Of a DNA stretch of 64,000 nucleotides, positions 18,122 through 57,379 are shown one piece after another. Every line of letters starts with the position of its first letter. Position 1 is the stretch's first letter. Under the pieces are notes generated by a model. It searched no databases. It worked only from the letters and a program-made list of their open reading frames with translations, and was not told where the DNA came from. A program made the translations under genes and the position numbers. Source of the stretch: Podarcis vaucheri (lineage: Eukaryota); NCBI GenBank assembly GCA_965113315.1, contig OZ220367.1. One strand, written 5' to 3'.

Positions 18122-19591
18122 TGTAGTTTTTAGCGGTTGTCCTGTAGCTCACGTCATTTACCTGGCAATAATTTAGACGACCATCAACTACTAATTGTGT
18201 TCTTACAGACTGTGCATGATGTGCTCAAAAACATAATGGATAGTAATGTGTAAACTAGTGGGGGGAAGAGTAGAGTTTTACCAGCAGGTGAGTTTGGACA
18301 AAATATCTAGAAGCAGCATTTTTAAAGGACAAGAAACAGTGGTTGAATTTGCTGCTGATGGACCGCAGGAGAGTACCATGGCACATTAGTTGCATTCACA
18401 GGGTGGGCAAACTGTAGAATCTGCAGGTGGCTGGGCAGCAATATTGTTGAATCAAATCTACTCATGTTAGAAGTGCCATCCTGGATTTTGTTGGTCCGAG
18501 TAGAGCAGTGTTCTTCAACCTTGGGTTCCTAGATGTTGTCAAAAATTTCATTTGAGGATGCACTGCTCATAGAGGGTGATGCCCAATGGGCCTTGCCTAT
18601 GCCTTGAGCGAATTATATATTATTTATTTATTTCACACACACACACACACACACACACCGTTTGACTGTAAAAACAACAACCTCAAAGCGGTTTACGAAG
18701 GGAACAAAGCAATAAAATTATCAGTTAAAATAATAGTTAAAAACAACTTTTTAAAACATCCAAAAATAAAATGAAATCGGGAATAAACTAAAAACAGATT
18801 AGCAGTGAACTGAAAACAGATTAATTAGGTGTGTGCTGAATTCAATATACCCCAGAACCCTCTGGAATTCATGGCAGATGACTGAGGGCTTCCTCAGCAG
18901 ACAGATCAATGGAAAAAGAATTCCCAGAAGGTATTAAGTTTGAAAAACACAGGTCTAAAGAGTGGATTGTATCAGTGACTCCTACAGAGCTGTCTACTGA
19001 AACAAATAGGACACATGTCCCACTGTCACACCTAGCCCCGGACAGGGCACTGGAAATTAATTACATTTGTTGTGCCTGTCTGTATTTGGACCTGTAGGAC
19101 AGGGCAGTGGAATATCTGACATTTCATATGTCTCCCACATATAGGACAGATGATGGTAACATCGGCAGAAAAATCTAGGTTTAGAAGCACCTCACATCCC
19201 CCATTGTTGGGCTTGCATGTCTCCTGTTGTTTGAAAAAAACCAGGAAGGGGATGGTCTTATCCATGAACTGTGCATCTTCATGACATGCCAGCATTTTGT
19301 GGCACGCGCCCAATAAAAAGACAGTGGCTTGGCATCAGACTGAATTAGTTCAATGTAGCTCCTGTTGAAATCACTACTTAAGCCCCATTGATTTTAATGG
19401 GAATTAAGTTCAACTAACTTAATCTGGATCCAGCTCATTCCCTAAAATGTGTAGTGACATCAGTAGCATTTTCATGTTACTATGATGAAATCACCATGAA
19501 TAGTTTACATCCTTATTTAATTGAACCATTGTTAGGCCATTATATCCCAAGCATGGAACTGTGATTTACAGGGCAATCTTATACACATCTA

Positions 19592-20620
19592 CCGTATTTT
19601 TTGCCCCATAAGACGCACTTTTCCCCCTCCAAAAATGAAGGGGAAATGTGCCTGCGTCTTATGGGGCGAATGCAGGCTTTCGCTGAAGCCTGGAGAGCGA
19701 GGGGGGTCGGTGCGCACCGACCCCTCTCGCTCTCCAGGCTTCAGGAAGCTTTGCGCAACCCTCAGGAGACCGGCTCCGAGGGTTGCACAGAGCTGCCTGC
19801 AGTCCCGGGATCAGCGCAGCTCTGCGCGGCCACCGGGAGCCGGGGGCGAAACTCCGCCCCGCTCCCGGTGGCCGCGCAGAGCTGCCTGCGGTCTTGGGAC
19901 CAGCGCAGCTCTGCGCTGCCATCCGGAGCCGGGGGCGAAGCTCCGCCCCGCTCCCGGTGGCCGCGCAGAGCTGCCTGCGGTCCTGGGACCAGCGCAGCTC
20001 TGCCCGGCCACCGGGAGCCGGGGGCGAAGCTCCGCCCCGCTCCTGGTGGCCGCGCAGAGCTGCCTGCGGTCCTGGGACCAGCGCAGCTCTGCGCTGCCAT
20101 CCGGAGCCGGGGGCGAAGCTCCGCCCCGCTCCCGGTGGCTGCGCAGAGCTGCCTGCGGTCCTGGGACCAGCGCAGCTCTGCCCGGCCACCGGGAGCCGGG
20201 GGCGAAGCTCCGCCCCGCTCCCGGTGGCCGCGCAGAGCTGCCTGCGGTCCTGGGACCAGCGCAGCTCTGCGCTGCCATCCAGAGCGGGGCGCTAAGCTCT
20301 GTCCCACTCCCGGTGGCCGCGCAGAGCTGCCTGCAGTCCTGGGACCAGCGCATCTCTGCGCCGCCATCCGGAGTGGGGCGCTAAGTCCCGCCCCGCTCCG
20401 GATGGCGGCGCAGAGCTGCCTGCCATCCCGGGATCAGCACAGCTCTGCCCATCGCCAGCCCCACAAGCTCGGGGGACAGTGGGAAGCAGAGCGTGCCTTC
20501 CCACTGTTCCCCGACCTGGTTCTTCCAGCCCCGCACCTGGCGGGGGAAATAATTTTTTTTTTCTTTAAAAAACTAGGTGCGTCCTATGGGCCGGAGCGTC
20601 TTATGGGGCGCAAAATACGG
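19592..20620. mobile_element. Non-autonomous Tc1/mariner-superfamily (Tc2-like) DNA transposon, 1,029 bp, carrying a GC-rich minisatellite
   Basis: TIRs CCGTATTTTTTGCCCCATAAGACGC / GCGTCTTATGGGGCGCAAAATACGG, TA on both sides (19590-91, 20621-22); no transposase. Confidence 0.88.
19786..20450. repeat. 89-bp GC-rich palindromic minisatellite, about 7.5 copies
   Basis: CAGAGCTGCC recurs at 19788, 19877, 19966, 20055, 20144, 20233, 20322 and 20411 (exact 89-bp spacing). Confidence 0.95.
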
Positions 20621-21630
20621 TATTCAAGTCCCATCAAATTCAATGTCTGTAAAAGATTGCATCTTTAATGCCAATTTACTAAGCAGGATCTTAAACACCT
20701 GCTTGAAGATGGTTTAAGATTCTGGTTAATAAAGTGAAAATAAAGCATGGTTCCCTATTTTGCATGTAATCTAACTGTGGTTCTGTTAAAAGAGAATGTA
20801 AACACTGAGAAAGGGAGAGGTGACGAAGGAGTGTGTCATCCTGTTGCTGATACCCAGCTGCTAAAGAAAATTAGATTTTTTTTTTACCAAAGCCACTTTG
20901 TGAATCTGCCCCTTCATGTTTAATTCTGTGCTTTAAAGACCTGGAAAATCTCAGTAGCAGAACAATGGGTTTGGAAAAACAAAATAAGTAGCTATCATAA
21001 TACTGAGCAGTTCTGTTGTGCGTGTCCGACTTGCTCTTTGAAAGAAACACAGGATGTTTGCAGCAGGCTGTCTAATGGTGCCATGTAGCCAATTAGTGCA
21101 TGAATAATACACTAATATTTTCACAATAGTAGATGAAGACACAGTTAACCCTAGTAGTTTGGACTTTGACACTGTATTCAACAAAGAAGTTTTGACTAAA
21201 TGTTTGTCTTGCTAGTAAAATAGTAGAATTTCATGCATATGGTCATTCTAAGAATTACTGTCATACCTTCTGCTAGGAAGGTGAGTATTCGCACAAGCCT
21301 ATGTTGCGTCTATTCAATATTAAGCCATCAAGTTCAGTGAGACTTACTCCCAGGTTAGTGGATATACTACATTTACTTGAGAATAAATCCCATTGAACAA
21401 AGTGTGACTTACTTCTGAGTAGACATTCTGAGGATTCTGCTGATGTCCACTTCCTTAGCACAAGGTACAAGGGTATTTATCAGCTGACATGTATAGGAAT
21501 GTTGTTGTGTTGTTTTTTTATTTTACATGATCTTCTTTCTCATTGGTTTCATTTTAGTCAACATTTGTGCTCATACTTCTTTTTTTAAACTACCCGATGA
21601 CACTTTCTTTCTGTGTTTTTTCTCCTGCAG

Positions 21631-27812: not shown

Positions 27813-27959
27813 GTATATATGCACTGTTACTGTTTTGGCCTGGGCAAATAGCAAGTAGAAACATGTGTTGGGTTTATTTTTGAATGATTAAAGGTGAATT
27901 AGGCGGTGACTATACAAAGAGCGTTACCACAGTGCCATGTGGCATGGATATAATACACT

Positions 27960-29595
27960 CTGGTTGAAATTATCAATTTGTTCCTTAACACAGGGACATT
28001 CCCAGGGGAGCTGAAGGAAGCAATGGTGTGTCCGCTCTTAAATAAAACTTCACTAGATCCTTTAGATCTATCCAATTACCGCCCAGTTTCAAATCTCCCA
28101 TATCTGGGTAAGGTAATTGAGAGAGCAGCTGCTGACCAGCTTGGTAGGTTTCTGGAGGAAACATCGGCTTTAAATCCATTTCAGTCCAGATTCCGTCCTG
28201 GTTTTGTAACCGAGATGGCTCTGGTCGCCCTAACAGATGATCTCCGCAGACAACTGGATCGAGGCGGGTCGGGACTGCTGATTCTCTTAGATTTGTCAGC
28301 AGCATTTGACATGGTTGATCATGAACTTTTGGACCACCGCCGATGTGCGGATACAGGGCATAGCCCATAAATGGCTGTGCTCTTTTATCTCTGGTCAGGG
28401 ACAGAGGGTGGCACTAGGGAGGGAGTTGTCATCGCGCCACCCCTTGGTGTGTGGAGTGCCACAGGGCAAAATCCTCTCCCCGATGCTTTTTAACATCTTT
28501 ATGCGCCCCCTTGCCCAGATTATCCGGAGCTTTGGGCTGGGTTGTCACCAATATGCTGATGACACTCAGCTCTGTCTGCTGATGGATAGCCATACCGACT
28601 CAATCCCTGACATACTGACCAGATGTTTGGAAGCTGTGGCTGGATGGTTTCATGGGAGCCGATTGAAACTAAATCCTTCAAAGACAGAGGTCCTCTGGCT
28701 GGATCGGGATGGTATGGGGGTGAGGGACCAATTCCCTTCTCTTGCGGGGGCCCAATTAGTGCCATTGCCTTCCGTTAAGAATTTGGGTGTAATCCTTGAT
28801 GCCTCCCTTTCCATGGAGGCACAGGTTACAGCAACAGCCAAGGCGACATTTTTCCACCTTCGCCGCATCAAACAGTTGGTCCCTTACCTTTCCCGCCCCG
28901 ACCTGGCCACAGTGATCCATGCGATGGTCACCTCCAGGCTTGACTACTGTAATTCGCTCTACGCAGGGCTGCCCCTGAAGCTGTCCCAGAAACTCCAGTG
29001 GGTGCAGAATGCTGCAGCGAGGCTCCTCACAGGGTCTCTGCCATGGCAGCATATTCACCCAGTGCTTTTCCAGCTGCATTGGCTCCCGGTGGAGTACAGG
29101 GTCAGATTTAAGGTGCTGGTTTTGACTTTTAAAGCCCTTCACGGCCTAGGACCCTCGTACCGCCTCTCCTGGTATGCCCCACAGAGGACCTTAAGGTCCA
29201 CATATAGCAACACCCCAGAGGTCCCGGGCCCTAAGGAAGTTAGATTAGCCTCAACCAAAGCCAGGGCCTTCTCAACACTGGCCCTGGCCTGGTGGAATGC
29301 TCTGTCTCTTGAGACCAGGGCCCTGCGGGATCTGATCTCTTTCCGCAGGGCCTGTAAGACAGAGTTGTTCCACCTGGCCTTTGGCTTGGAGCCAATTTGA
29401 TTCCCTCCCCCTCTTTCCTTTTCCTTTCTCGTCCTATGAAGAGATTGCTCCCTAATTGTTTTAATGTTGTATCTTAATCTTTTAAATTGTATTTTAATCA
29501 ACTTGCTTTTATTATTGGTTGTTAGCCGCCCTGAGCCTGGTCTTGGCTGGGGAGGGCGAGGTATAAATAAAAAAATATTATTATTATTATTATTA
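27960..29595 (+). mobile_element. 5'-truncated L2-clade LINE (ORF2 reverse transcriptase fragment with one frameshift, 3' UTR and (ATT)n tail); 5' boundary approximate
   Basis: ORFs 27978-28370 and 28306-29400 contain NYRPVSNLP, LLDLSAAFD, GVPQG, YADD and the L2-type C-terminus LDYCNSL...QNAAARLL...LHWLP; ends in ataaataaaaaaat(att)n. Confidence 0.93.
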
Positions 29596-41712: not shown

Positions 41713-43120
41713 TCTTCAAAAATGTAAACAGCACATTAAGATCAGCAGCCAATATTCTAACAATTTCCATTAGTATTGACACTTTCTATGGGCAGACAAG
41801 ATGGATTCAACTGGCAACTGAAGACAGTGAAGACAACATCAGATGACCCTGTTTGGCAGGGGTGCAGTTTGGTAACCATGGTGCTACCACAGAAAAGTCC
41901 CTCTCTCTGGAAGCCCCCTGTTAATTTTGTGATAGGGAAGGTTGAGCTTGCTTTCCTTGAACTGCTAGGAAAACTGTCTTCAAAAGGTACCAAGACACTA
42001 CACCTTGTAGAAAAAGTGTACTCTTCTTTTTAAATGCCTCCTGTGGAAAGATTTTTGAACATTTGTATATTTTGCATAGTACACCATGCAAACTGTTTTA
42101 TTCCATGTGCTTGTTTTTGACATGATAAACCATGCATGAATAAAATTTAAAGTTTGGTTGCTTTGCTTGCTCACGTTTTTTCATTAATCGTATTTCCCAT
42201 TTTTTATGTATGACAAATGCTTCTTAAAGTCATTTCATGTGAAGCTTTTTATCTTTTAAGTTTTACCAAGTAAAAGGAATACCGCATGAAAAAGCCAACA
42301 AATGCAAAAAGCTTTTTTCCCCCCTTTTTGGTTCTTTTAATCCTTGAGTCAGAAAAGGTCTTGCTCTTATTGGCTTTGTGAGAGTGAAGCATATACAAAA
42401 TGTGCATGGGAGAGAGAGAAAGTTTTGACTTTATTCCCGTTGCTTCACAGTTTGCACATCAATTGCCTGTCACCTTAAAGGTATTTTGGGTTCTGCATGA
42501 AATAGTTCGGAGTGGTTTTCAAAGCAGACTTTAGCTACTCAATGTCATTTGCACAAGTTTACACCGTTTTGTGTTAACGAAACTGCTATACAGTAAATAT
42601 AAAATGTATTAATGAAACTGCAAAGGATATAATGATAGAAATTTTCCAGAGGACAATTTTGATACTTGCACAAAGCAAAGACATACTGATAACAGGCAAA
42701 ATGGAGCTGAGATACTTAATATCTTAACTTTAGCACATCAGAAAGTCAATAGGAAGTAAGAGAAGAATTTTTGGTTGTGGCTATTACTTTGGACCATAAT
42801 GGACTTCCTTCTATGTGTTTTCTGTTCTTTTATTGTTTGCAGACTCGGTTGCCTTGTGCTTTCCTGTCTTTCATTTCATGTTGGTTTCTTTCTTTCTTTT
42901 TTTAATTTTGGATCATCCATAATTATGTGACTCATTCCTATTTTTCCCTACCTGTTTAGCTGTTGATTTTACCTACTTCATTCTAATTCATACAAACAGT
43001 TGTACTTGCTTTTTTTGTAATATTACAACGTTTACTGACCAATTTTCTTCTCTGGTCTCTCTGTTTTTCAATCATTTTTGTTGATTTTTACGTTTGATTA
43101 TTTTGGTTTAACAATTTAAG

Positions 43121-45691
43121 AAACAGTTGAACGAAGTGCAGGAGCAACAAGATCCCTACCTGCTACCTATTCATACAAGCCATTCTTTTCAGCAAGACCG
43201 TATCAGTCTTGGACAACAGCACCAATTACTGTGCCTGGGCATTCCAAATCAGGCTTCACTTCTCTATCAAGCTCTTCCTCTAACACTCCAACAGCTTCTC
43301 CATTAAAATCTATATGGTCCGTTTCTTCTGCTTCACCAATCAAATCCACATTAGGAGCCTCCACTACGTCTTCAATTAAATCTGTTAGCGATGTAGCTTC
43401 TCCAATTAGATCATTTCGGACAATCTCCTCTCCAATAAAAACCGTGGTCTCACAGCCTCCATATAATATCCAAGTCTCTTCTGGTTCTTTCGTCAGAGCA
43501 CCCACAGTAACAGAAGCCACTAGTTTGAAAGGGCTGGCATCCGCATTCCCCTCTCGGACATCTCCAGTGACTACAGCTGGGTCTCTTTTGGAGAGATCAT
43601 CCATTACCATGACGCCTCCAGCATCCCCCAAATCGAACATTAACATGTACTCTTCAAGTTTGCCATTTAAGTCAATCATCACATCAGCATCACCGCTTTT
43701 ATCTTCACCTTTAAAGTCAGTGGTGTCTCCTGCTAAGTCAGCAGTTGATGCTGTTTCACCATCTAAGGTCACGATGGCTTCATCCCTCACTTCCCCTGTG
43801 AAACACACAGTCGGGCATACAGAGGTAGCCATGGTTAACGGATCCATGTCACCTTTGAAATATCCGTCCCCTGCCAATTTAATCAATGGAACTAAAGCCA
43901 CAGCCACATTTCAAGACAAGATCACTGCAGCAACCAGTTCTGCAAGTTGTGCTGTTAATGCAGCAACTGATACTGTTGAGAAAATGTTTCCAACCACTAC
44001 TGCAACCCCATTTTCTCCACTCAGGTCGCATGTGTCTTCAACTCCATCAGCCTTTCAGTCAATAAGAACTACTTCTGCAGGTGTATTGTACACATCTCTT
44101 GGGTCAATATCAGCAACTACCTCGTCAGTAACTTCATCAACTATCACAGTCCCAGTATATTCTGTAGTCAATGTTTTGTCTGAACCAGCACTAAAGAAGC
44201 TCCCAGAGTCATCTTCCCTTACAAAATCGGCAGCTGCGTTGCTATCGCCTATTAAAACATTGACTACAGAGACACGCACACAGCCTCACTTTAACCGAAC
44301 CTCATCTCCTATAAAACCATCCTTGTTTTTAGCACCCTCTGCTCTTAAGTTGTCCGTACCATCTTCTTTATCTTCTAGTCAGGAGATGTTAAAAGATGTG
44401 GCTGAGATGAAAGAGGACCTAATAAGAATGACAGCGATATTGCAGACAGATGTAATGGAGGACAAGGAATTCCAGCCAGAACTAACAAAGGAGGGTAGAA
44501 TAGATGATGAAGAACCTTTTAAAATTGTTGAGAAAGTAAAAGAGGACTTAGTAAAAGTTAGTGAGATACTGAAAAAAGATGTGTGTTTAGAAAAGAAAGC
44601 ATCAACCAAGCTATCAAAAAATGATAAAGGACACTCTTCTGAGGATGAATGGGTAGAGTTCAGTGCAGATGAGATTGATGAAGCAAGACGGCAAGGCATG
44701 ACATATCCTCCTATAACTATTCCTGAAAAGGTGCAAATTAAAGCGAAGGCTGTATCTGAAAAGGATTATAACTTGACTAAAGTCATCGATTATTTGACGA
44801 ATGACATTGGTAGTAGTTCTCTGGCAAGTCTGAAGTACAAGTTTGAAGAGGGGAAAAGAGAAGGCGAAGAGAGACAAAAGAGAGTTTTAAAACCAGCCAT
44901 TGCATTGCAAGAACACAAACTTAAAATGCCTCCAGCCTCCATGAGGCCTTCTACTTCAGAAAAAGAGTTGTGTAAAATTGCAGATTCCTTTTTTGGAACT
45001 GATACTATTTTGGAGTCTCCCGATGACTTTTCCCAACATGATCAAGACAAAAGTCCTTTGTCTGACAGTGGCTTTGAAACAAGAAGCGAGAAAACTCCTT
45101 CAGCCCCACAAAGCGCCGAGAGCACAGGGCCGAAACCACTTTTCCATGATGTACCCATCCCTCCGGTCATTACAGAGACAAGAACTGAGGTGGTTCACGT
45201 GATCCGTAGCTATGAACCTTCATCAGAAGAAGTTCCGGAACCTCAAGCAGAAGAGCCGCCATCAATGAAAACAGCACCTACTTTTATGGAACTGGAACCC
45301 AGGCCAAATGGAGGGTCTATCAAAGAAAAAATGAAAGCCTTTCAAATGAAAGCCAGTAATGAAGATGAAGACCACAAATGTGTTCTTGGTAAAGGTGTCC
45401 GTGTAAAAGAAGAAACTCATATAACTACCACAACCAGAATGGTTTACCATAAGCCTCCGTGCACTGAGAGTTCTTCTGAAAGAATTGAAGAAACCATGTC
45501 TGTTCATGATATCATGAAAGCTTTTCAGTCAGGACGCGATCCTTCCAAAGAGTTGGCAGGTCTGTTTGAACATAAGTCTTCGGTAACACCAGATGTTAGC
45601 AAGTCTACTGAAATTTCACCACAACATACAGAGAAGGACAGCAAAATGAAACCCAAACTGGAGCGTATAATAGAGGTCCATATCGAAAAAG
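43121..45691 (+). CDS. ANK3: Short form of the giant exon via internal donor (270-kDa ankyrin-G type), 2,571 nt
   Basis: ATCGAAAAAG|gtaatg is a good phase-1 donor; joining to 51497 gives IIEVHIEKG-PQSPCERT, the junction I recall for 270-kDa AnkG. Confidence 0.75.
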
Positions 45692-48600
45692 GTAATGAGG
45701 CTGAACCTACTGAAGTCATTATTAGAGAAACCAAAAAGCACCCAGAGAAAGAAATGTATGTTTATCAGAAAGACTTACCTCGAGGTGATTTGGAAAAACA
45801 TGATGCTCTTCCTTGTTCAGATGAACAAGGTCAGCAAGAAGAAGAAGAACTGACAGCAGAAGAGTCCCTACCTTCTTATCTGGAGTCTTCTAGAGTAAAT
45901 ACGCCCGTGTCTCAGGAAGAAGACAGTCGCCCTAGTTCTGCCCAACTTATGTCTGATGACTCGTACAAAACACTGAAGCTTCTGAGTCAGCACTCAGTAG
46001 AGTACCATGACGATGAGTTGTCAGAACTAAGAGGGGAGTCTTACAGGTTTGCTGAGAAAATGCTGCTCTCAGAAAAGCTAGATGTGTCTCACTCTGATAC
46101 TGAGGAGTCAGTTACTGACCATGTTCTACCCCTTAGCTCAGACTTTCAGGGGCATGATAAACGATGCAGAGAAAAAATAGCCACAGCCCCCCCAAAAGAA
46201 ATCCTCACCAAAATCTCTAAAGATATATCAGAAAATGGTGTAGGTAAAATGTCTAAAGATGATCATTATGATAAAGTGACAGTGTTACATTATACCGGAG
46301 ATGTTAGTAGCCCAAAGCACGCAATGTGGATGCGCTTTACTGAGAACAGATTAGACAGAGGTAGAGAAAAGTTGATGTATGAAGACAGGGTGGACAGGAC
46401 TGTTAAGGAGGCAGAAGAAAAACTGACAGAAGTATCACAGTTCTTCCGGGACAAAACAGAGAAACTGAATGATGAACTGCAATCTCCAGAGAAAAAGCAG
46501 CAGAAAAGGAATGGGAAAGAAGCACACTCTAGCCATAGTTCAACCAGCAGCAGCCCCGAAAAGGTGACGATTTCTGAGGTGCAGAGTTCAAAGGATGACT
46601 GGACTAGAGGAGGGCCCTTTGGCCATTGTGGGAAGAGCTTCCCAAAAGCTGATGAAAGAAAAGCAGCTAGTTTGCCTAGCAGTCCCGAGAGAAGGGCTCT
46701 TACACAACAGACCGAGGACTGTAAGCAGTTGATGGAGCAGAAAGGAACAGCTCAGAAGAGTAGGACACCCGAGGCTTCGCCAACCGGATTCCAGCTGAAG
46801 CAATCCAAACTCAGTTCTATTAGGCTGAAGTTTGAACAGAGCATAGGCTCAAAGAATAAGGACCTACATCATGATGATAAGAAGCAGGACACTCAATCTA
46901 AAATCCCAGTGAAAAAAATGCAAGAGAGCAAGCTCCCAGTCTATCAGTTTTATGCAAGAGAAAAGCATGCAAAAGAGGTAGACCTCGCAGATGGGAGTAT
47001 AACATTACAGAGGGAATCTCCTGCTAGCAAATTAAAAGATGGTGCCCAGGGTAAAGGCAAAGCGATGGAAGATGCTGCTGCTTCAGATGTACTCAGACAC
47101 AGAAATGAAATGCCAAGTAAGAATGTTCCAGAAGGCTTTGCAGAGCAGAAGCTGAAAGGTTTGGCGTACAGTACGAGCTCAGATACTGCATCAGCCAAGG
47201 GGCATTGGGATAAAAAGGTCTATAGGACATGGGAAAGCCCTGGAACATTTGCCCATAACACACAAAAAGAAAAACTGTCCCATGTGCTTGTTCAGGATGC
47301 AGTAAAAGACAATCACATTGACCACCCCGAGACTAAAGACCTGGGCAGAGCCAGTGAATTCATCACTGTGACAGAGCATGAGCACAAGGTGTCAACGAGT
47401 GGGTCCCATTCAAAGGAGGTGAAGGAAGTGACTGTAAAATCTCCATCCAAAAAGGTCCTTTATAGAGAATATTTTGTCAGAGAAGGAGAGCCCCCCAGTG
47501 AAGTGATGGATAAAACCTCAAAGAAAAAAGAACCATTGACTGCATCCCATATTCCAGTCAGAATTTCAGAAGAAAAACGAATGTTATCAGCTAGCATTCC
47601 CGATGGAGTTCATGAACAGCTAAAACATGCAGCACATGAACTGTCAGCTAAAGTGTCCCATGCTAGTGTGGCAAAGGAAAAAACTGAGAGGAATTTTGAT
47701 TATACAGAGCATGTTAAAAATAAGTATTCAGAATTTTGTCAGTTTAGCAGTAGGCACATCAAATTAAGTCCTCCTATGGAGGATGCTGAGCTATCCCTTA
47801 GTAAATCACCTGATTCTTTAGAAAATAGCCCAGGAAAGGAGTCTCCCTCGAGGGACTTTGACTCTATTCATAGTGATAACTTGGCAAAATCAGCCCCTTT
47901 AGCAACAGCTGAGGGAACAAAAGAGATAAAAACCTTACCTGTTTATGTCAGTTTTGTTCAAGTAGGGAGGCAATATGAAAGGGAGGTGCAACAAGGAAAT
48001 ATTAAAAAAATTGTAAGTCAGGAAAGTAAGACGGTACAAGAGACAAGGGGGGGCTTTTACACCACAAGGCAGCAGAAACAGCTTCCTTCTCCACAAGGCA
48101 GTCCAGAAGACGACACATTAGAACAGGTGTCCTTTATAGATAGTTCTGGGAAAAGTCCATTAACACCTGAAACTCCTAGCTCAGAGGAAGTGAGTTACGA
48201 ATTTACATCTAAAACGCCTGATTCACTAATTGCTTATATACCAGGCAAGCCCAGTCCTATCCCTGAGGTTTCTGAGGAGTCTGAAGAGGAAGCAGAGGCT
48301 AAGTCAACCTCTGTAAAACAGGCCATTGTTGAGCCACCAAAAATTGACAGAGTGCTGCCCAGTAGCTTAGACAGAGATTCTAATAAAAGGCCCAAAGGGA
48401 ACCGGGTTGCGTACATTGAGTTCCCTCCTCCTCCTCCGCTAGATTCCGATCAGACAGAATCAGAAAAGCAGCGCCACTCCTCTGAGAGTGAAATGGAGAT
48501 GATAGAAGTAAACCTACGGGATGAACATGACAAATATAAGCTGGCTGAACCACTCATAAGAGTACAGCCACCTTCTCCTGGGCCACCAGGAGAAGATCTT

Positions 48601-50842
48601 AGTGACTCCAGTGATGATGAATCCCTGTATCAGCCTGTTCCCATTAAAAGATACATGTTTAAATTGAATGACCTTGAAGATGGCCAGAAGGAAGGCCTCA
48701 AGCATAAATTGCCTGCGAAAAGAGAGAATGGGAAACCTAATGATTTTGATCTTAGCCTTGATTCTCCCCAGAACGATATTGCGCAAAATGGGAACAATGA
48801 CCAGTCTGTCACTGAGTGTTCCATAGCAACCACTGCAGAATTTTCCCATGATACAGATGCAACTGAAATTGACTCCCTTGATGGGTATGATCTACAAGAT
48901 GAAGATGATGGCTTAACCGAGAGTGATTCCAAACTTGCTGGCCCAGCAGTGGAAATCAAGAAAGACATATGGGCTACAGAAGGCATTTTGAAACAGACTG
49001 ATCGGTGTTTTAGCCAAAGTAAGCTGGAAGTTATTGAGGAGGAAGAAAAAGTTGGCCCTGAAGAAAACAAACTTTTATCAAAATGTCCAGCAGCTGAAAA
49101 AAGTGCCGATAAGACTGAACAAAAATCAGGGGCACAGTTTTTCACTTTGGAAGGCAGGCACCCTGACAGGACTGTGTTTCCTGATACATATTTCAGTTAC
49201 AAAGTAGATGAAGAGTTTGCAACCCCTTTTAAGACAGTAGCTACTAAAAGCCTAGATTTTGACCCTTGGTCCAATAACCGTGGTGATGATGAAGTGTTTG
49301 AGTCCAAATCGAGGGATGACGAGGCTAAGCCTTTTGGCCTTGCTGTAGAAGACAGATCTCAAGCGACAACCCCAGATACGACTCCAGCCAGAACTCCAAC
49401 TGATGAAAGTACACCAACTAGTGAGCCCAATCCCTTCCCGTTTCACGAAGGGAAGATGTTTGAGATGACTCGCAGTGGCGCAATTGACATGAGCAAGAGG
49501 GATTTTGTTGAAGAAAGACTCCAATTTTTTCAGATTGGTGAGCATACTTCTGAAGGGAAGTCAGGGGACAAGGGGGAAGGGGATAAAAATAAAGTCACTG
49601 CCATCACACAGCTGCAGTCAGGGGACAAAGCTGTAGGAAAAAACGTAGAGGGAGAAGTAGAAACACCAAAAGTTGAATGTAAGCTCATCACCCAGGCCAG
49701 TGGAGATTGTACGGAAGCAACACCCGGTAGTAACTCCCTGGAGAAATCATCGACCACTGTTAATGCTTCTAAAGTTGATCCCAAATTGCGCACACCTATT
49801 AAAATGGGAATTTCTGCTTCCGCCATGACGCTGAAGAAAGATGTCTCTGGAGAAGTAACAGATAAGCTAGAGGCTGTGACGCCAGGTGTTCAGGGGTTAG
49901 AATATGACGCCATAGAGGAGGTTACAAGCCAGTCAAGTGGTAGGGAAGCAGAAAAGCATGATTTCCAAAAAGATAATTTTAATAACAACAACAATTTGGA
50001 CCCATCCGCTTTACCTAACGATAGCGTTACCTGTAAAGTAGTGCTAAATGAACATTTTGAGCCTAAGTGTCCCACACAGAAAGCTACTCAATTGAAAAAC
50101 ACTTCAGGAAATGATACAGGTGCAACACAAGGACACTGTAAACCAAAAGTACACGGAGAACAGCAGAAGTCATCAGAGCCAGTAGGGAATAGAGCGAGAT
50201 CAAAACTTCCCATAAAGGCTACCTCAGCAAAAGAAGCTATCCCACATAGCAGTAGCCACGCCAGCAGAGTGAGTAAAGTCAGACAGGATAGTAAACTTGA
50301 CAAAAGGAAACAAAACAGCTCTTTCCCACATGTAGAAGTAAGGTCTAAGATTCCTGTAAAAAATACACAAAGGCATAACTTAGCCATAGCTAGAAAGACA
50401 CCAGCAGTTCAAAACCAAGAGCAGCTAGAGAGAAGCAAAGCCAAACCGCTTCCTTCTAAATTACCATTAAAGGTAAGATCTACCACCAGCACCTCTACTA
50501 CCACCACCACCACCGCTGCAGCAGCAACAGTTAAAGTAAAGCAGAGTCAGCTTAGGGAGGTATGTAAACATTCTATTGAATATTTTAAGGGAATTAGTGG
50601 AGAGGCTTTAAAGCTTGTGGACCGCCTGTCTGATGAAGACAAAAAGTTGCAGTCAGAGGTGTCCGATGACGATGAAGAAGAAGACAGTACATCAAGAAAC
50701 ACGTCCCTGTCCGAAGCCACTCAAGTTTTCCAGCCTTCCATTACATCGAAGCCCGCTAGAGATATGAGAACAGAGGCAGCATCTTTAAAATCAAAGATTG
50801 AAAAGTCCGACAGTGAGAGGAGGAGGAGGAGTAAGAGGACTG
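43121..50842 (+). CDS. ANK3: ANK3 neuronal giant exon, 7,722 nt / 2,574 codons (serine-rich domain plus tail of 480-kDa ankyrin-G)
   Basis: tttaag|AAACAGTTGAACGA (KTVERSAGATRSLP) to AAGAGGACTG|gtgaga; phase 1-1; same frame as ORF 43231-50913; S/T-rich N-terminal part, LIR motif and SxIP motifs. Confidence 0.97.
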
Positions 50843-51496
50843 GTGAGAATGGAGGGAGTCAGGTTTCTGGAGCTCTCGTGGCTCACCTCGTGGAGATCAA
50901 GCCTAGTTTGTAAAACTTTCAACTTGTTGATCCTAGTGCATGAACTGTTGTGATTGCCTGTGAAGTGACTTACTGTAGTTCTCATTCTGTCATTGTCATC
51001 TGTATGTGCTGTCTTTTATACTCTTCTTTCTTCCTTTAAGTGAAGCCTATACTATAGACAGCTAGTGAAGCATGCTAAATACATTCATGTAATAGTTTAG
51101 GTCTTAGAAGACTTCATTTTGTGACAGCAAAAAAAAACACCCCTCATTTTGTCAAACAGAGAAAACTTTTTTTCCCCCTTTAAGTACTGGTGAACTGTTT
51201 TCCACCACCCCACCAGTAGTTAAAGCACTGTTGAACAGTTGAGTAGATAGATTGTTGGCATGTTTGGTTTCATTTACACAATTAACATCATGTAGTTTGA
51301 CACTCGGCCTTATAAAGGTGGCATTTTTTTTCAAATCTGTGACAAAAAATATATTTATTTATTGTAGGTTTTAGGGCACTCAGTCATTTTAGCAATTGAT
51401 CTGAGCACCAGTTAACATAGTACAATGTATTAAAATGCTGTTAGTGCTAAGAATTCTTTCACAGCACCTTTTTAATCAATAAATTATAAATCACAG

Positions 51497-54296: not shown

Positions 54297-54440
54297 CTGA
54301 TGCCTTAACCTCTATATTGACAAAAATCAATCGGATTGACATTGTAACTTTGTTGGAAGGACCAATATTTGATTATGGAAACATTTCAGGCACCAGAAGC
54401 TTTGCAGATGAAAATAATGTTTTCCATGATCCTGTTGATG
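54297..54440 (+). CDS. ANK3: ANK3 exon, 144 nt, death domain end (TDALTSILTKINRIDIVTLLEGPIFDYGNISGTRSFADENNVFHDPVD)
   Basis: ttccacag|CTGATG ... GTTGATG|gtaact; phase 1-1. Confidence 0.97.
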
Positions 54441-55463
54441 GTAACTGAATTTGTTTCATTTTGACCAATATTTATCCACACAGAAAAGTCTTTTCATCTA
54501 ATAACATAAACCATGCAAGATGATACTGTTTCAAATAAAATATATATTTATTTATCTCAAATATATAAAAAAATCAGGGTATGTATCAGTGAACACTTCA
54601 GAGTTGTTCTCTCCATTAACTTAATTTGAACTCAGTCTAAAATTACTGTGAAATCGTTCCCTTTGGTAAAATTACAACTGCTTATTGTTTCTTTACATTC
54701 TAAAATTACCCTAATGGGATAATGAAATTCTGGTACTCTAATCAATGCCCAGATTTATGCTGAGATTTAACTTCAATTTTTGTTCTTCAACTGTAAATGC
54801 TTTTATTGAGCAGATAAATATATAAATGAATCTGTACTACTGATCAGGTGCTAAAAACTAATTCTGACTTTGAAGATACATTAAGCTGCTTTCCAAATAC
54901 TTCCCTTTTTTGTTTCATTTTGTAAGCTATGTTCTTCTAAACACAATGAATCTCCCTTTTTCTTGTATTTTATTCAAACACATGCTGTTTTTGCTGCCTT
55001 CTGCAAGGATTTTCTGGCTGTGTGCAGCGCTTATGAGCTTAATTCATCCCCAAGCAACATTCTTGGTCATTGAATCACCGCATTGCAGAAATTAAAATTC
55101 TGTGGACATTTTAAGAAGTTTTCTCTTGAAATGTCGCTTGTGCCTTTTAATCAGAGACAAGTATCTTTTCTACAAAGAGAATGTGCTTCTCTGTGTTGCT
55201 GTCTATCCTTCCTCTCCTCTGAACCTTCCTCAAGCTTCTTGTCCTCACCAAGACCAGACTACCTTTTAACTTTCTCTCAGTTGATTCAGTTGCAGAACAC
55301 GGGGACATTAGTGCACATTGCTCTCCAGGCAGCACAATGTAATGCTGATCTCTCTCCCCATCCCAGCCTTTCATCAGCTCATCAGTTTAATATTTACCTC
55401 TGAGAATATGGTTTACAGTTCACTGTCATTTCATTTGTCTATGTTCAAGTCTAACTGCCAGAG

Positions 55464-55855
55464 CAGGGATGGTCAACCTCTGTATTCCTGGGGGCTGCTC
55501 CATTCACCAGCTGCTACTCTGGGCTTTGGGAGCACTTTTCACAGAAGCAAGCAGACCTCATTATGGATGATCAGGCAAAGCTAGCAGTAAGGGCTCTATA
55601 GGTATGGAGCATTCACATTCGGGTGGCAAAATATCATTAATTGCTGGGTGGAGGAAGTAATGTCCTTCCAGAAAGATTCTGTCATGAGGCTGATTGGTAG
55701 CTTGCTTTTGCCTTTTCAGGATGCTCTTAATATAGCTATACACTAAATTCTACATGCAATATCCTTTGGGCAATTGTTTGTAAGACACATTTATTAAAAT
55801 TGGGGAGCTACTTCAGGGCTGATCAGGCTCACAGGTCTCCAGCGGGCCATCCCTG
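55464..55855. mobile_element. Probable old hAT-family non-autonomous element
   Basis: Termini CAGGGATGG / CCATCCCTG; flanks TGCCAGAG / TTCTAGAT only partly match. Confidence 0.5.
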
Positions 55856-55922
55856 TTCTAGATAATTATTGTTCTCTCTTTTTTGTTGCTTATGTTTTTC
55901 TTTTCTCTCTTTATTCAATCAG

Positions 55923-56041
55923 TGTTTCTGATTGTACCCATGTCACCAAGATCGCCTCAGTCTCCAAGATCACCAAGATCTCCTTATTCATCACAATCCT
56001 CTCATCTCTGTAGTTTTACTGTTCCCGAAATTTATATCTAG
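55923..56041 (+). CDS. Candidate alternative ANK3 exon, Ser-Pro rich (VFLIVPMSPRSPQSPRSPRSPYSSQSSHL...); either an 87-nt cassette ending 56009 or a terminal exon ending at TAG 56039-56041
   Basis: About 55-nt pyrimidine tract then caatcag|; reads in phase 1 with the upstream exon; repeated SP motif uses varied synonymous codons; donor TCT|gtagtt is weak. Confidence 0.45.
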
Positions 56042-56721
56042 ATCCTCCCTATCCTGTAGTTTTTGTTTTAGATTTTGACTCTACAGTCACTGAGAATATG
56101 CTATACTTTTCTGCCCTCTTTAAGGTTCATTTGTTTCTAACAACTGCGTTATCATGATGCAGTGATTAAAGTTGAAGTATCTACAGATGATATTTCACAT
56201 TTGTAATGGTATAAAGCCAAGTAGTTTTATCTTTTGGAAACTGGATGATAAAAATGTACACCAATTTTTAAGAAATCCTGGCTGTCTTGCTTTATAACAT
56301 AATTCATTACATCTAAACTTTTTGAGTAAATCCAAATACAAGCAGAAAAGTTATTTTGCCACAAAATACCACTCTTGATATAAAAAGACAGCAAGCAGCC
56401 ATCCAGATTCAGTCCATTTGCTATTGAGAAGAGAAATATAATACTACTTAAATTACTGGAAAACCAGTAATTGAAAAATTGCAACCATGTGTGCTGTAGG
56501 CCAATAATAGTAATAAGCTGTGCTGTATTAGCCATTTCATCTACTTTGGTTTTGTTGCATTCTTTAAGGATGTTACATTCATTATTACATTCCTAATTAA
56601 AGTGTTGTTATCATTTCATACATTTTCCCCATTTTACATAATTAACTGGCCACTCTGCATGCTTGATTATATGTCACTCCATACTTCATTGCAATCAGTC
56701 CAAATGTGCTGTCTTCCATAG

Positions 56722-57379
56722 GTTATCCCACCATCCAAGTGGAACTGGAAACTCCCACTGGGTTGCGCTTCGTGCCACCCACCCCTTCCCAGCAAGATGA
56801 TTTCTTTAGCGATTTCTCTAGCATAGAGTCACCCCTTAGAACTCCCAGTAGACTGAGTGACGTGTTAGTAACTCCACAGGGAAACATAGATGATACAGCA
56901 GCAGAACCTCCAGTGGTGACTGAAGAAGACACTTCACTGGAAGACGGCAAACACGATTTCTCAGTGCCTAGAGAAGGAGCATCTAAAGATGTAGGCCAGA
57001 TCCAATTGGATGAAATGGACCTTAATGATTACCCACGCTATCTTGGTAGTTATGCCGAGGTACCAAAACAAAAGCTAAGCCAAGAGACTAGTCCAACTTT
57101 AGTGAGAACTGAGCAGCAGGAGAGAGAAAAGTCTGGTACTGATGAGATGACGGAAGAAAAGCTTAAATCTCTGTTTGAAGACATTCACCTTGACGAAGTA
57201 GTTGAGTCTGAGGAGATGACAGAAGAAAAAGTCTTGTCTATTCTTAAGTATGTGCAGCAGGCAGAACAGGAACTGTCTTCAATTACAGGTTGGCAGAGTG
57301 AGGCCTCCAGCGTCAATGTGGAGCCGCCAACACCAGGACGCAGAATAAGCGGTGATTTGCTGGATCGACTAGATGACAG
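56722..57379 (+). CDS. ANK3: ANK3 C-terminal exon, long form, 658 nt (acidic insert GYPTIQVELETPTGL... plus GWQSEASS...DRLDD)
   Basis: ttccatag|GTTATC ... GATGACAG|gtatga; phase 1-2; ORF 56706-57395. Confidence 0.92.
57289..57379 (+). CDS. ANK3: ANK3 C-terminal exon, short form, 91 nt via internal acceptor (GWQSEASSVNVEPPTPGRRISGDLLDRLDD)
   Basis: tcttcaattacag|GTTGGCAG; same phase as the 56722 acceptor; gives the canonical DPVD-GWQ junction. Confidence 0.88.

What the first reader, a model, noticed from the sequence alone, without database searches (positions are those of the whole stretch)
55923..56041. Unrecognised Ser-Pro repeat exon candidate right after the death domain
Seen: a ~55-nt pyrimidine tract and CAG acceptor open a frame in phase with the upstream exon (ends 54440, phase 1). 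It reads VFLIVPM-SPR-SPQ-SPR-SPR-SPY-SSQSSHL. The 9-nt units vary largely at synonymous positions (TCA/TCG/TCT, CCA/CCT), which fits protein-level constraint better than simple slippage. It could close at TCT|gtagtt (56009; 87 nt, frame preserving) or run to TAG at 56039, truncating AnkG after the death domain. Inference: an isoform with five clustered proline-directed kinase sites. I do not recall this peptide in described ankyrin-G isoforms.
Basis: partly seen in the sequence, partly recalled or inferred. Interest (0 to 1): 0.72.

Follow-up and report, generated by a model that had tools for sequence, protein, structure and literature searches.

The report
Candidate hidden last exon of ankyrin-G
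A short stretch inside an intron of a reptile's ankyrin-G gene is conserved in other animals and likely encodes an alternative, serine-proline-rich protein end that would cut ankyrin-G off after its death domain, but no spliced RNA using it was found.

Summary
The sequence is as described. A CAG at 55920-22, behind the most pyrimidine-rich tract of 60 candidates in this intron, opens a phase-1 frame of 39 codons ending at TAG 56039-41. Five unnamed Logan ORFs carry the same 39 residues without gaps and stop at the same codon. The four scored are 31-33 of 39 identical. The five 9-nt units keep Ser-Pro more often than neutral decay predicts (p 0.0014 in frame, 0.005 in any frame). Its donor scores below all 16 real donors, and the GT is excluded in 3 of 4 distinct ortholog tails. 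An alternative last exon fits best (about 0.45). Use is not shown. None of 4 RNA-like runs spliced into it, one showed the skip, and 0 of 108 ANK3 proteins continue into it. Those runs were biased to unspliced RNA, and the human/mouse long-read survey could not see a last exon. A conserved non-coding element (0.25) or a poison exon (0.18) remain open.

The parts
54297..54440 (+). Constitutive ANK3 exon (144 nt, mouse exon 43) ending in phase 1; the presumed upstream partner
   Evidence: length equals mouse exon 43 in PMC4449188 Table 2
55464..55855 (.). About 400-nt insertion with 9-bp terminal inverted repeats (MITE-like), just upstream of the tract
   Evidence: Inverted arms 55460-72 and 55847-59. 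The spacing from the LQAAQ block to the acceptor is about 400 nt longer than in ortholog ORFs (counted by hand). Its left-end 16-mer occurs 8 times in the genome, the control 0 times.
55861..55922 (+). AG-free pyrimidine tract and CAG; possible branch A at 55892 (by eye, consensus recalled)
55923..56041 (+). Candidate coding part of an alternative last exon: 39 residues and TAG
   Evidence: splicing into it not seen
55943..56005 (+). Seven degenerate 9-nt units SPR SPQ SPR SPR SPY SSQ SSH; the sixth is SPQ in three ortholog ORFs. The frame also holds 6 YCAY motifs.
56010..56011 (+). GT proposed as cassette donor; rejected
56125..56126 (+). First donor-like GT after the acceptor (score 4.0; another at 56209, score 5.3). 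Both lie after the stop, so their use would make a stop-containing exon.
56165..56170 (+). ATTAAA, possible poly(A) signal 124 nt after the stop; weak
   Evidence: 924 of 5028 intronic 130-nt windows hold AATAAA or ATTAAA
56722..57379 (+). Known exon 44 (inner acceptor at 57289), the competing acceptor
   Evidence: spliced skip contig in run X11

Best explanation
The stretch 55923-56041 is conserved in other species and is likely a rarely used alternative last exon of ANK3, which would end ankyrin-G shortly after the death domain with a 39-residue Ser-Pro tail. Shown: acceptor-like anatomy, matching phase, a gap-free conserved frame to a shared stop, and no usable donor before the stop. Inferred: in some tissue the donor at 54440 joins the CAG at 55922 instead of exon 44, and the transcript is cleaved downstream, perhaps after ATTAAA at 56165. 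The acidic C-terminal regulatory region (exons 44-45 onward) is then replaced by a short basic tail. Speculative, from recalled motifs: five P-x-S-P sites fit MAP-kinase preference, the S-x-x-S spacing fits CK1 relay phosphorylation, and the end E-I-[YF]-I fits a class II PDZ ligand.
For: (1) Five unnamed ORFs (four distinct tails) align over all 39 residues with no gap and the same stop; the four scored are 31-33 of 39 identical to the window. That is about the level of real exon 44 against turtle, alligator and chicken (77-81%). (2) For 5 of 6 ortholog pairs the 39 residues are more alike (32-37) than the 39 before them (18-28). (3) The upstream frame is not kept: cluster member P0122 ends just before the acceptor, and the window has a stop upstream. 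(4) Unit decay spares two codon columns: p 0.0014 in this frame, 0.005 in any frame. (5) It has the best tract in the intron. (6) No donor above -1.9 lies before the stop. (7) 18 runs of five other coded organisms hold 12 of 13 sampled words of 55880-56060, while run X11 differs at 62 of 2248 positions over the intron. (8) Precedent: AnkG119 has a truncated 5-kD regulatory domain (PMC2120834 abstract).
Against: (1) None of 4 runs shows a joint or loose end at 55923. All cross it unspliced, and X11 holds the skip form (contig depth 542) and a whole-intron contig (27.3). (2) 0 of 108 ANK3 proteins that have the HDPVD motif (among the best 120 of 1661 hits) continue into it. No named protein came up. 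(3) The close pair P0124/P0127 differs at 2 of 39 residues in the frame and 3 of 112 upstream, so there is no sign of protein-level constraint there; P0124 has lost two prolines. (4) The replacements are not clearly conservative (mean BLOSUM -0.08 against -0.64 neutral, p 0.14). (5) The orthologs could only be found as open frames, so the lack of stops is built in, and no ortholog DNA was available for dN/dS. (6) The poly(A) signal is a weak variant at chance level (18%). (7) The matrix score of the acceptor is mediocre.
Confidence: 0.45

Rival explanations
1. A conserved intronic element that is not spliced in: a regulatory sequence for the exon 44 acceptor choice or for intron retention (for example a YCAY cluster), or a decayed former exon. 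The Ser-Pro frame would be a by-product of a TC/CA-rich 9-nt repeat.
For: No junction in 4 runs; 0 of 108 proteins. The intron upstream (about 55165-55350) is also alignable to the orthologs. Six YCAY in 73 nt is the maximum of the window. No extra constraint in the P0124/P0127 pair.
Against: Third-position decay of the units. YCAY needs no separate cause: synonymous recoding of the peptide gives a mean of 4.5, and 6 or more in 26% of recodings. No stable RNA fold (z +1.16) and no Rfam match. Gap-free length to a shared stop.
Confidence: 0.25
2. The acceptor is real but the exon is a poison exon. It closes at a donor after the stop (56124 or 56208), or runs on into exon 44, so the transcript holds an early stop and is likely removed by nonsense-mediated decay.
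For: Donor-like sites scoring 4.0 and 5.3 lie 83 and 167 nt after the stop. Decay would explain the missing contigs and proteins. Exon 44 is known to have several acceptors (PMC4449188).
Against: A poison exon needs no conserved peptide, yet the repeat keeps Ser-Pro. The human and mouse brain long-read tables list no exon in this intron, although mammals may lack the element.
Confidence: 0.18
3. An 87-nt in-frame cassette exon (55923-56009) inserts 29 residues between the death domain and exon 44.
For: A GT is present and 87 is a multiple of three.
Against: The donor scores -4.6, below all 16 real donors. The GT is excluded in 3 of 4 distinct ortholog tails. The residues after the donor stay conserved to the stop. 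No loose end at 56009. Not listed in mouse heart RT-PCR or in human/mouse brain nanopore tables.
Confidence: 0.07
4. An intronic promoter gives a short transcript translated from the ATG at 55940 as a 33-residue peptide, in the manner of the small Ank1 isoforms with their own first exon.
For: The ATG is kept in all five tails. Small Ank1 muscle forms with a novel N-terminus exist (PMC2134284, search listing only).
Against: The six residues before the Met and the pyrimidine tract are conserved too. The ATG context is weak (by eye). There is no donor to join downstream exons.
Confidence: 0.05

Closest known systems
ANK3 exon 44 / region 9 alternative acceptors (PMC4449188; PMC13646255)
   Same: Same intron, same upstream donor and phase; competing 3' splice sites change the region after the death domain.
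   Different: Those are in-frame and keep the C-terminal tail. This site lies 799 nt upstream of exon 44, has a stop and no good donor, and is in neither paper's exon table.
AnkG119 (PMC2120834, abstract only)
   Same: An ANK3 transcript with a truncated regulatory domain.
   Different: AnkG119 has 13 repeats and a 5-kD tail. I did not see its tail sequence or exon, so identity with this stretch was not tested; the peptide searches found no named match.
Alternative last exons made by intronic polyadenylation (general class; PMC5928244 seen as search listing only)
   Same: An acceptor in an intron, a short new coding tail, a stop and a possible poly(A) signal.
   Different: Cleavage and splicing are not shown here, and the tail is more conserved than a chance read-through.
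Nova-regulated YCAY clusters (PMC2014790, passages)
   Same: A dense YCAY cluster near a splice site in Ank3.
   Different: That paper's Ank3 target is called exon 31; I did not map it. The count here is explained by the peptide's codons.

Membership tests
Alternative last (terminal) exon | 3' splice site: tract, YAG, AG-free zone | tested here: met
   29 of 36 pyrimidines, 59-nt AG-free zone, best of 60 in the intron; matrix score mediocre
Alternative last (terminal) exon | Spliced junction from the upstream exon in RNA | tested here: inconclusive
   0 of 4 runs. They are contigs only, of unknown tissue, and were ranked by a query that favoured unspliced holders.
Alternative last (terminal) exon | In-frame stop with no usable donor before it | tested here: met
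   TAG 56039; the seven GTs before it score -1.9 or lower
Alternative last (terminal) exon | Cleavage and polyadenylation within the intron | not testable with these tools
   ATTAAA at 56165 is at chance level; contigs cannot show ends
Protein-coding exon | Purifying selection on codons (dN/dS below 1) | tested here: inconclusive
   Repeat-unit test positive; BLOSUM test p 0.14 and close-pair test negative; no ortholog DNA
In-frame cassette exon | Functional, conserved 5' splice site at 56009 | tested here: not met
Poison exon | Donor after the stop, and NMD sensitivity | not testable with these tools
   Candidate donors exist; no NMD data
Structured non-coding RNA | Stable fold or Rfam family | tested here: not met
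   z +1.16; 0 matches at E up to 1

The most novel reading that the evidence does not exclude
An old, unannotated last exon of ANK3, shared across reptiles and birds and possibly mammals, makes an ankyrin-G that keeps its membrane-, spectrin- and death domains but swaps the regulatory tail for a 39-residue phospho-switch. Amplicon long-read surveys missed it because they require a primer in the usual last exon.
Probability: 0.25. Interest if true: 0.7.

Novelty: new variant of a known kind. Interest (0 to 1): 0.45.

Why it matters
ANK3 organises the axon initial segment and is linked to bipolar disorder, and its minor isoforms are under active study (PMC13646255). A conserved isoform without the C-terminal regulatory region would be a new form to test. 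The 2026 nanopore catalogue kept only reads with a primer in the final exon, so it was blind to such a form. One RT-PCR or 3' RACE can settle it. If it is non-coding, it is still a conserved element beside a regulated acceptor choice, which is of less interest.

Tried and rejected
1. No listed holder is on record as RNA: no RNA holder listed. The runs laid are guessed to be RNA, and that blank is not used as evidence.
2. In one search, runs X1, X7 and X9 have no cover from 56224 to 56660, but their contigs end at different places (56113, 56084, 56218). This is not taken as a 3' end. Their 5' ends at 55076-55209 are not taken as a start either.
3. Table 3 shows no substitution in 55885-56051, but 36 rows are hidden, so this was not counted.
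4. Metagenome scans: 0 of 48 pattern hits confirmed; all 22 DNA hits are short chance matches.
5. P0125 and P0126 are unrelated repeats and were dropped before counting orthologs. P0123 differs from P0001 only upstream and was not scored separately.
6. No paralogous copy in the own genome: only the site itself and 3 hits with E about 2-3.
7. Pfam finds nothing on the peptide. The Atlas gave no answer.
8. 'Region 8, putative, not confirmed' in PMC13646255 is not this stretch: its probe peptide maps to the giant exon.
9. The Nova cluster and an RNA structure as sole causes were weakened.
10. The scan's earlier findings gave nothing.
11. Literature: no paper holds the peptide words. Listings showed no description of it; most were seen only as listings. 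Hopitzan 2005 and Peters 1995 are recalled and were not read. Ensembl, VastDB and PolyASite could not be checked.

Full report
Setting. The window is part of ANK3 in a 1.6-Gb genome. Reptile and bird ANK3 proteins map on it exon by exon, and the exon lengths match the mouse table of PMC4449188. The finding lies in the intron between the 144-nt exon 54297-54440 (mouse exon 43, end of the death-domain region) and exon 44 (56722-57379, inner acceptor 57289).

Observation. CAG at 55920-22 follows an AG-free, pyrimidine-rich tract. It has 29 of 36 pyrimidines, the best of 60 YAG sites in the intron, reached by 9 of 1777 intronic YAG sites and above 16 of 17 real acceptors. A position matrix from those 17 sites is less kind: score 1.1, below 13 of 17. 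That matrix is noisy. The upstream exon ends in phase 1, and the frame gives VFLIVPMSPRSPQSPRSPRSPYSSQSSHLCSFTVPEIYI-stop. Such an open length follows 315 of 1769 intronic YAG sites, so only the content matters. The Ser-Pro array is the only one in the window.

Is the repeat coding-like? Differences among five units fall at third positions in 7 of 11 cases (p 0.039), and among seven units in 10 of 19 (p 0.065). When a perfect five-unit array is mutated at 11 random sites, two codon columns stay invariant in 0.14% of trials in this frame and 0.5% in any frame. That null ignores re-duplication of units, so it overstates the case somewhat.

Conservation. Three searches found unnamed Logan ORFs that end in this peptide: P0001, P0124 and P0128. 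P0123 and P0127 came as cluster members. Their upstream parts align to this intron, so they are orthologous read-through ORFs, not spliced proteins. All align without gaps and stop at the same codon; the four scored are 31-33 of 39 identical to the window. Real exon 44 is 77-81% identical to turtle, alligator and chicken. In 5 of 6 ortholog pairs the 39 residues are more alike (32-37) than the 39 before them (18-28); the sixth, closest pair gives 37 against 38. Member P0122 ends just before the acceptor. The organisms are not given, so the depth of conservation and presence in mammals are unknown. These ORFs can only be found when open, so the lack of stops is not evidence. The replacements are not significantly conservative (p 0.14). 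The P0124/P0127 pair has 2 of 39 changes in the frame and 3 of 112 upstream. Among closer relatives, 18 runs of five coded organisms hold 12 of 13 sampled words of 55880-56060. One of them differs at 62 of 2248 intron positions. These runs were ranked by that share.

How does it end? The proposed donor TCT|GTAGTT scores -4.6; the 16 real donors score 2.0 to 10.4, and 2440 of 2912 intronic GTs score as well. The codon holding that GT is Tyr, Tyr, Asn or Ser in the four distinct ortholog tails, so it is excluded in three. The residues beyond it (TVPEI) are invariant up to the stop. The cassette is therefore unlikely. The first plausible donors, 56124 and 56208, lie after the stop. ATTAAA stands at 56165, but 18% of intronic 130-nt windows hold such a hexamer. 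The anatomy fits a last exon best and a poison exon next.

RNA. Four of the 24 listed runs, from four studies and guessed to be RNA, were laid on 54400-56660. None shows a joint or a loose end at 55923 or 56009, and all cross the acceptor unspliced. Run X11 has a contig that leaves at 54442 into exon 44 (depth 542) and an unbroken whole-intron contig (27.3); contig depth is a poor measure of level. The limits are serious. My query included intron flanks and so ranked unspliced holders first. Contigs drop rare forms, tissues are unknown, and the tool leaves out human-like contigs, which may have removed exon-43 contigs in X1, X7 and X9. The result counts against common inclusion, not against rare or tissue-restricted use.

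Annotation and literature. Of the best 120 of 1661 ANK3-like hits, 108 hold the HDPVD motif, and none continues into this peptide. PMC4449188 (parts 2-4 of 6 read) lists no exon between 43 and 44 in mouse heart. PMC13646255 (parts 1-3 of 8, passages, and parts 1-2 of 5 of supplement 1 read; figures not seen, supplementary PDF only searched) lists none in human or mouse brain at 17,583-164,000 reads. It kept only reads holding a primer in the final exon, so it tests the cassette and poison forms but not a last exon. Its unconfirmed region 8 maps to the giant exon. PMC2120834 (abstract) reports AnkG119 with a truncated regulatory domain. PMC2014790 (passages) concerns another Ank3 exon. No paper in the library holds the peptide words.

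Non-coding rivals. Six YCAY motifs in 73 nt are the densest in the window, but synonymous recoding reaches six in 26% of trials. There is no stable fold and no Rfam match.

Mechanism and odds. Most likely (0.45), the donor at 54440 is sometimes joined to 55923, translation ends at 56039 and the RNA is cleaved in the intron. That would give an ankyrin-G with its death domain and a short basic Ser-Pro tail in place of the regulatory region. The kinase and PDZ readings of the tail are recalled motifs and untested. Rivals: conserved non-coding element 0.25, poison or extended exon 0.18, in-frame cassette 0.07, intronic start 0.05. Verdict: a real, conserved and apparently unannotated element; a good exon candidate, not a shown exon. 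Interest 0.45.

Noticed in passing
window 55464-55855: MITE-like insertion with 9-bp terminal inverted repeats and a decayed 8-bp flank repeat (5 of 8 alike). It is absent from the ortholog ORFs and sits directly against the pyrimidine tract. Its left-end 16-mer occurs 8 times in the genome.
   Followed up: partly
window 55165-55350: A second intronic block that aligns to the distant ortholog ORFs. It holds the best-scoring AG of the intron by matrix, at 55296.
   Followed up: no
window 55996-56017 and 56042-56063: A 22-nt direct repeat, each copy ending in a pyrimidine run and TAG.
   Followed up: partly
window 54441-56660: Run X11 holds the intron as one unbroken contig beside the spliced form: possible intron retention or pre-mRNA.
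   Followed up: no
window 43120-50910: The giant neuronal ANK3 exon, an open frame of 2597 codons.
   Followed up: no
window 27954-29397: Open frames that look like a LINE reverse transcriptase fragment, by eye from the translation.
   Followed up: no
window 19536-20665: GC-rich tandem repeat with long open frames on both strands.
   Followed up: no
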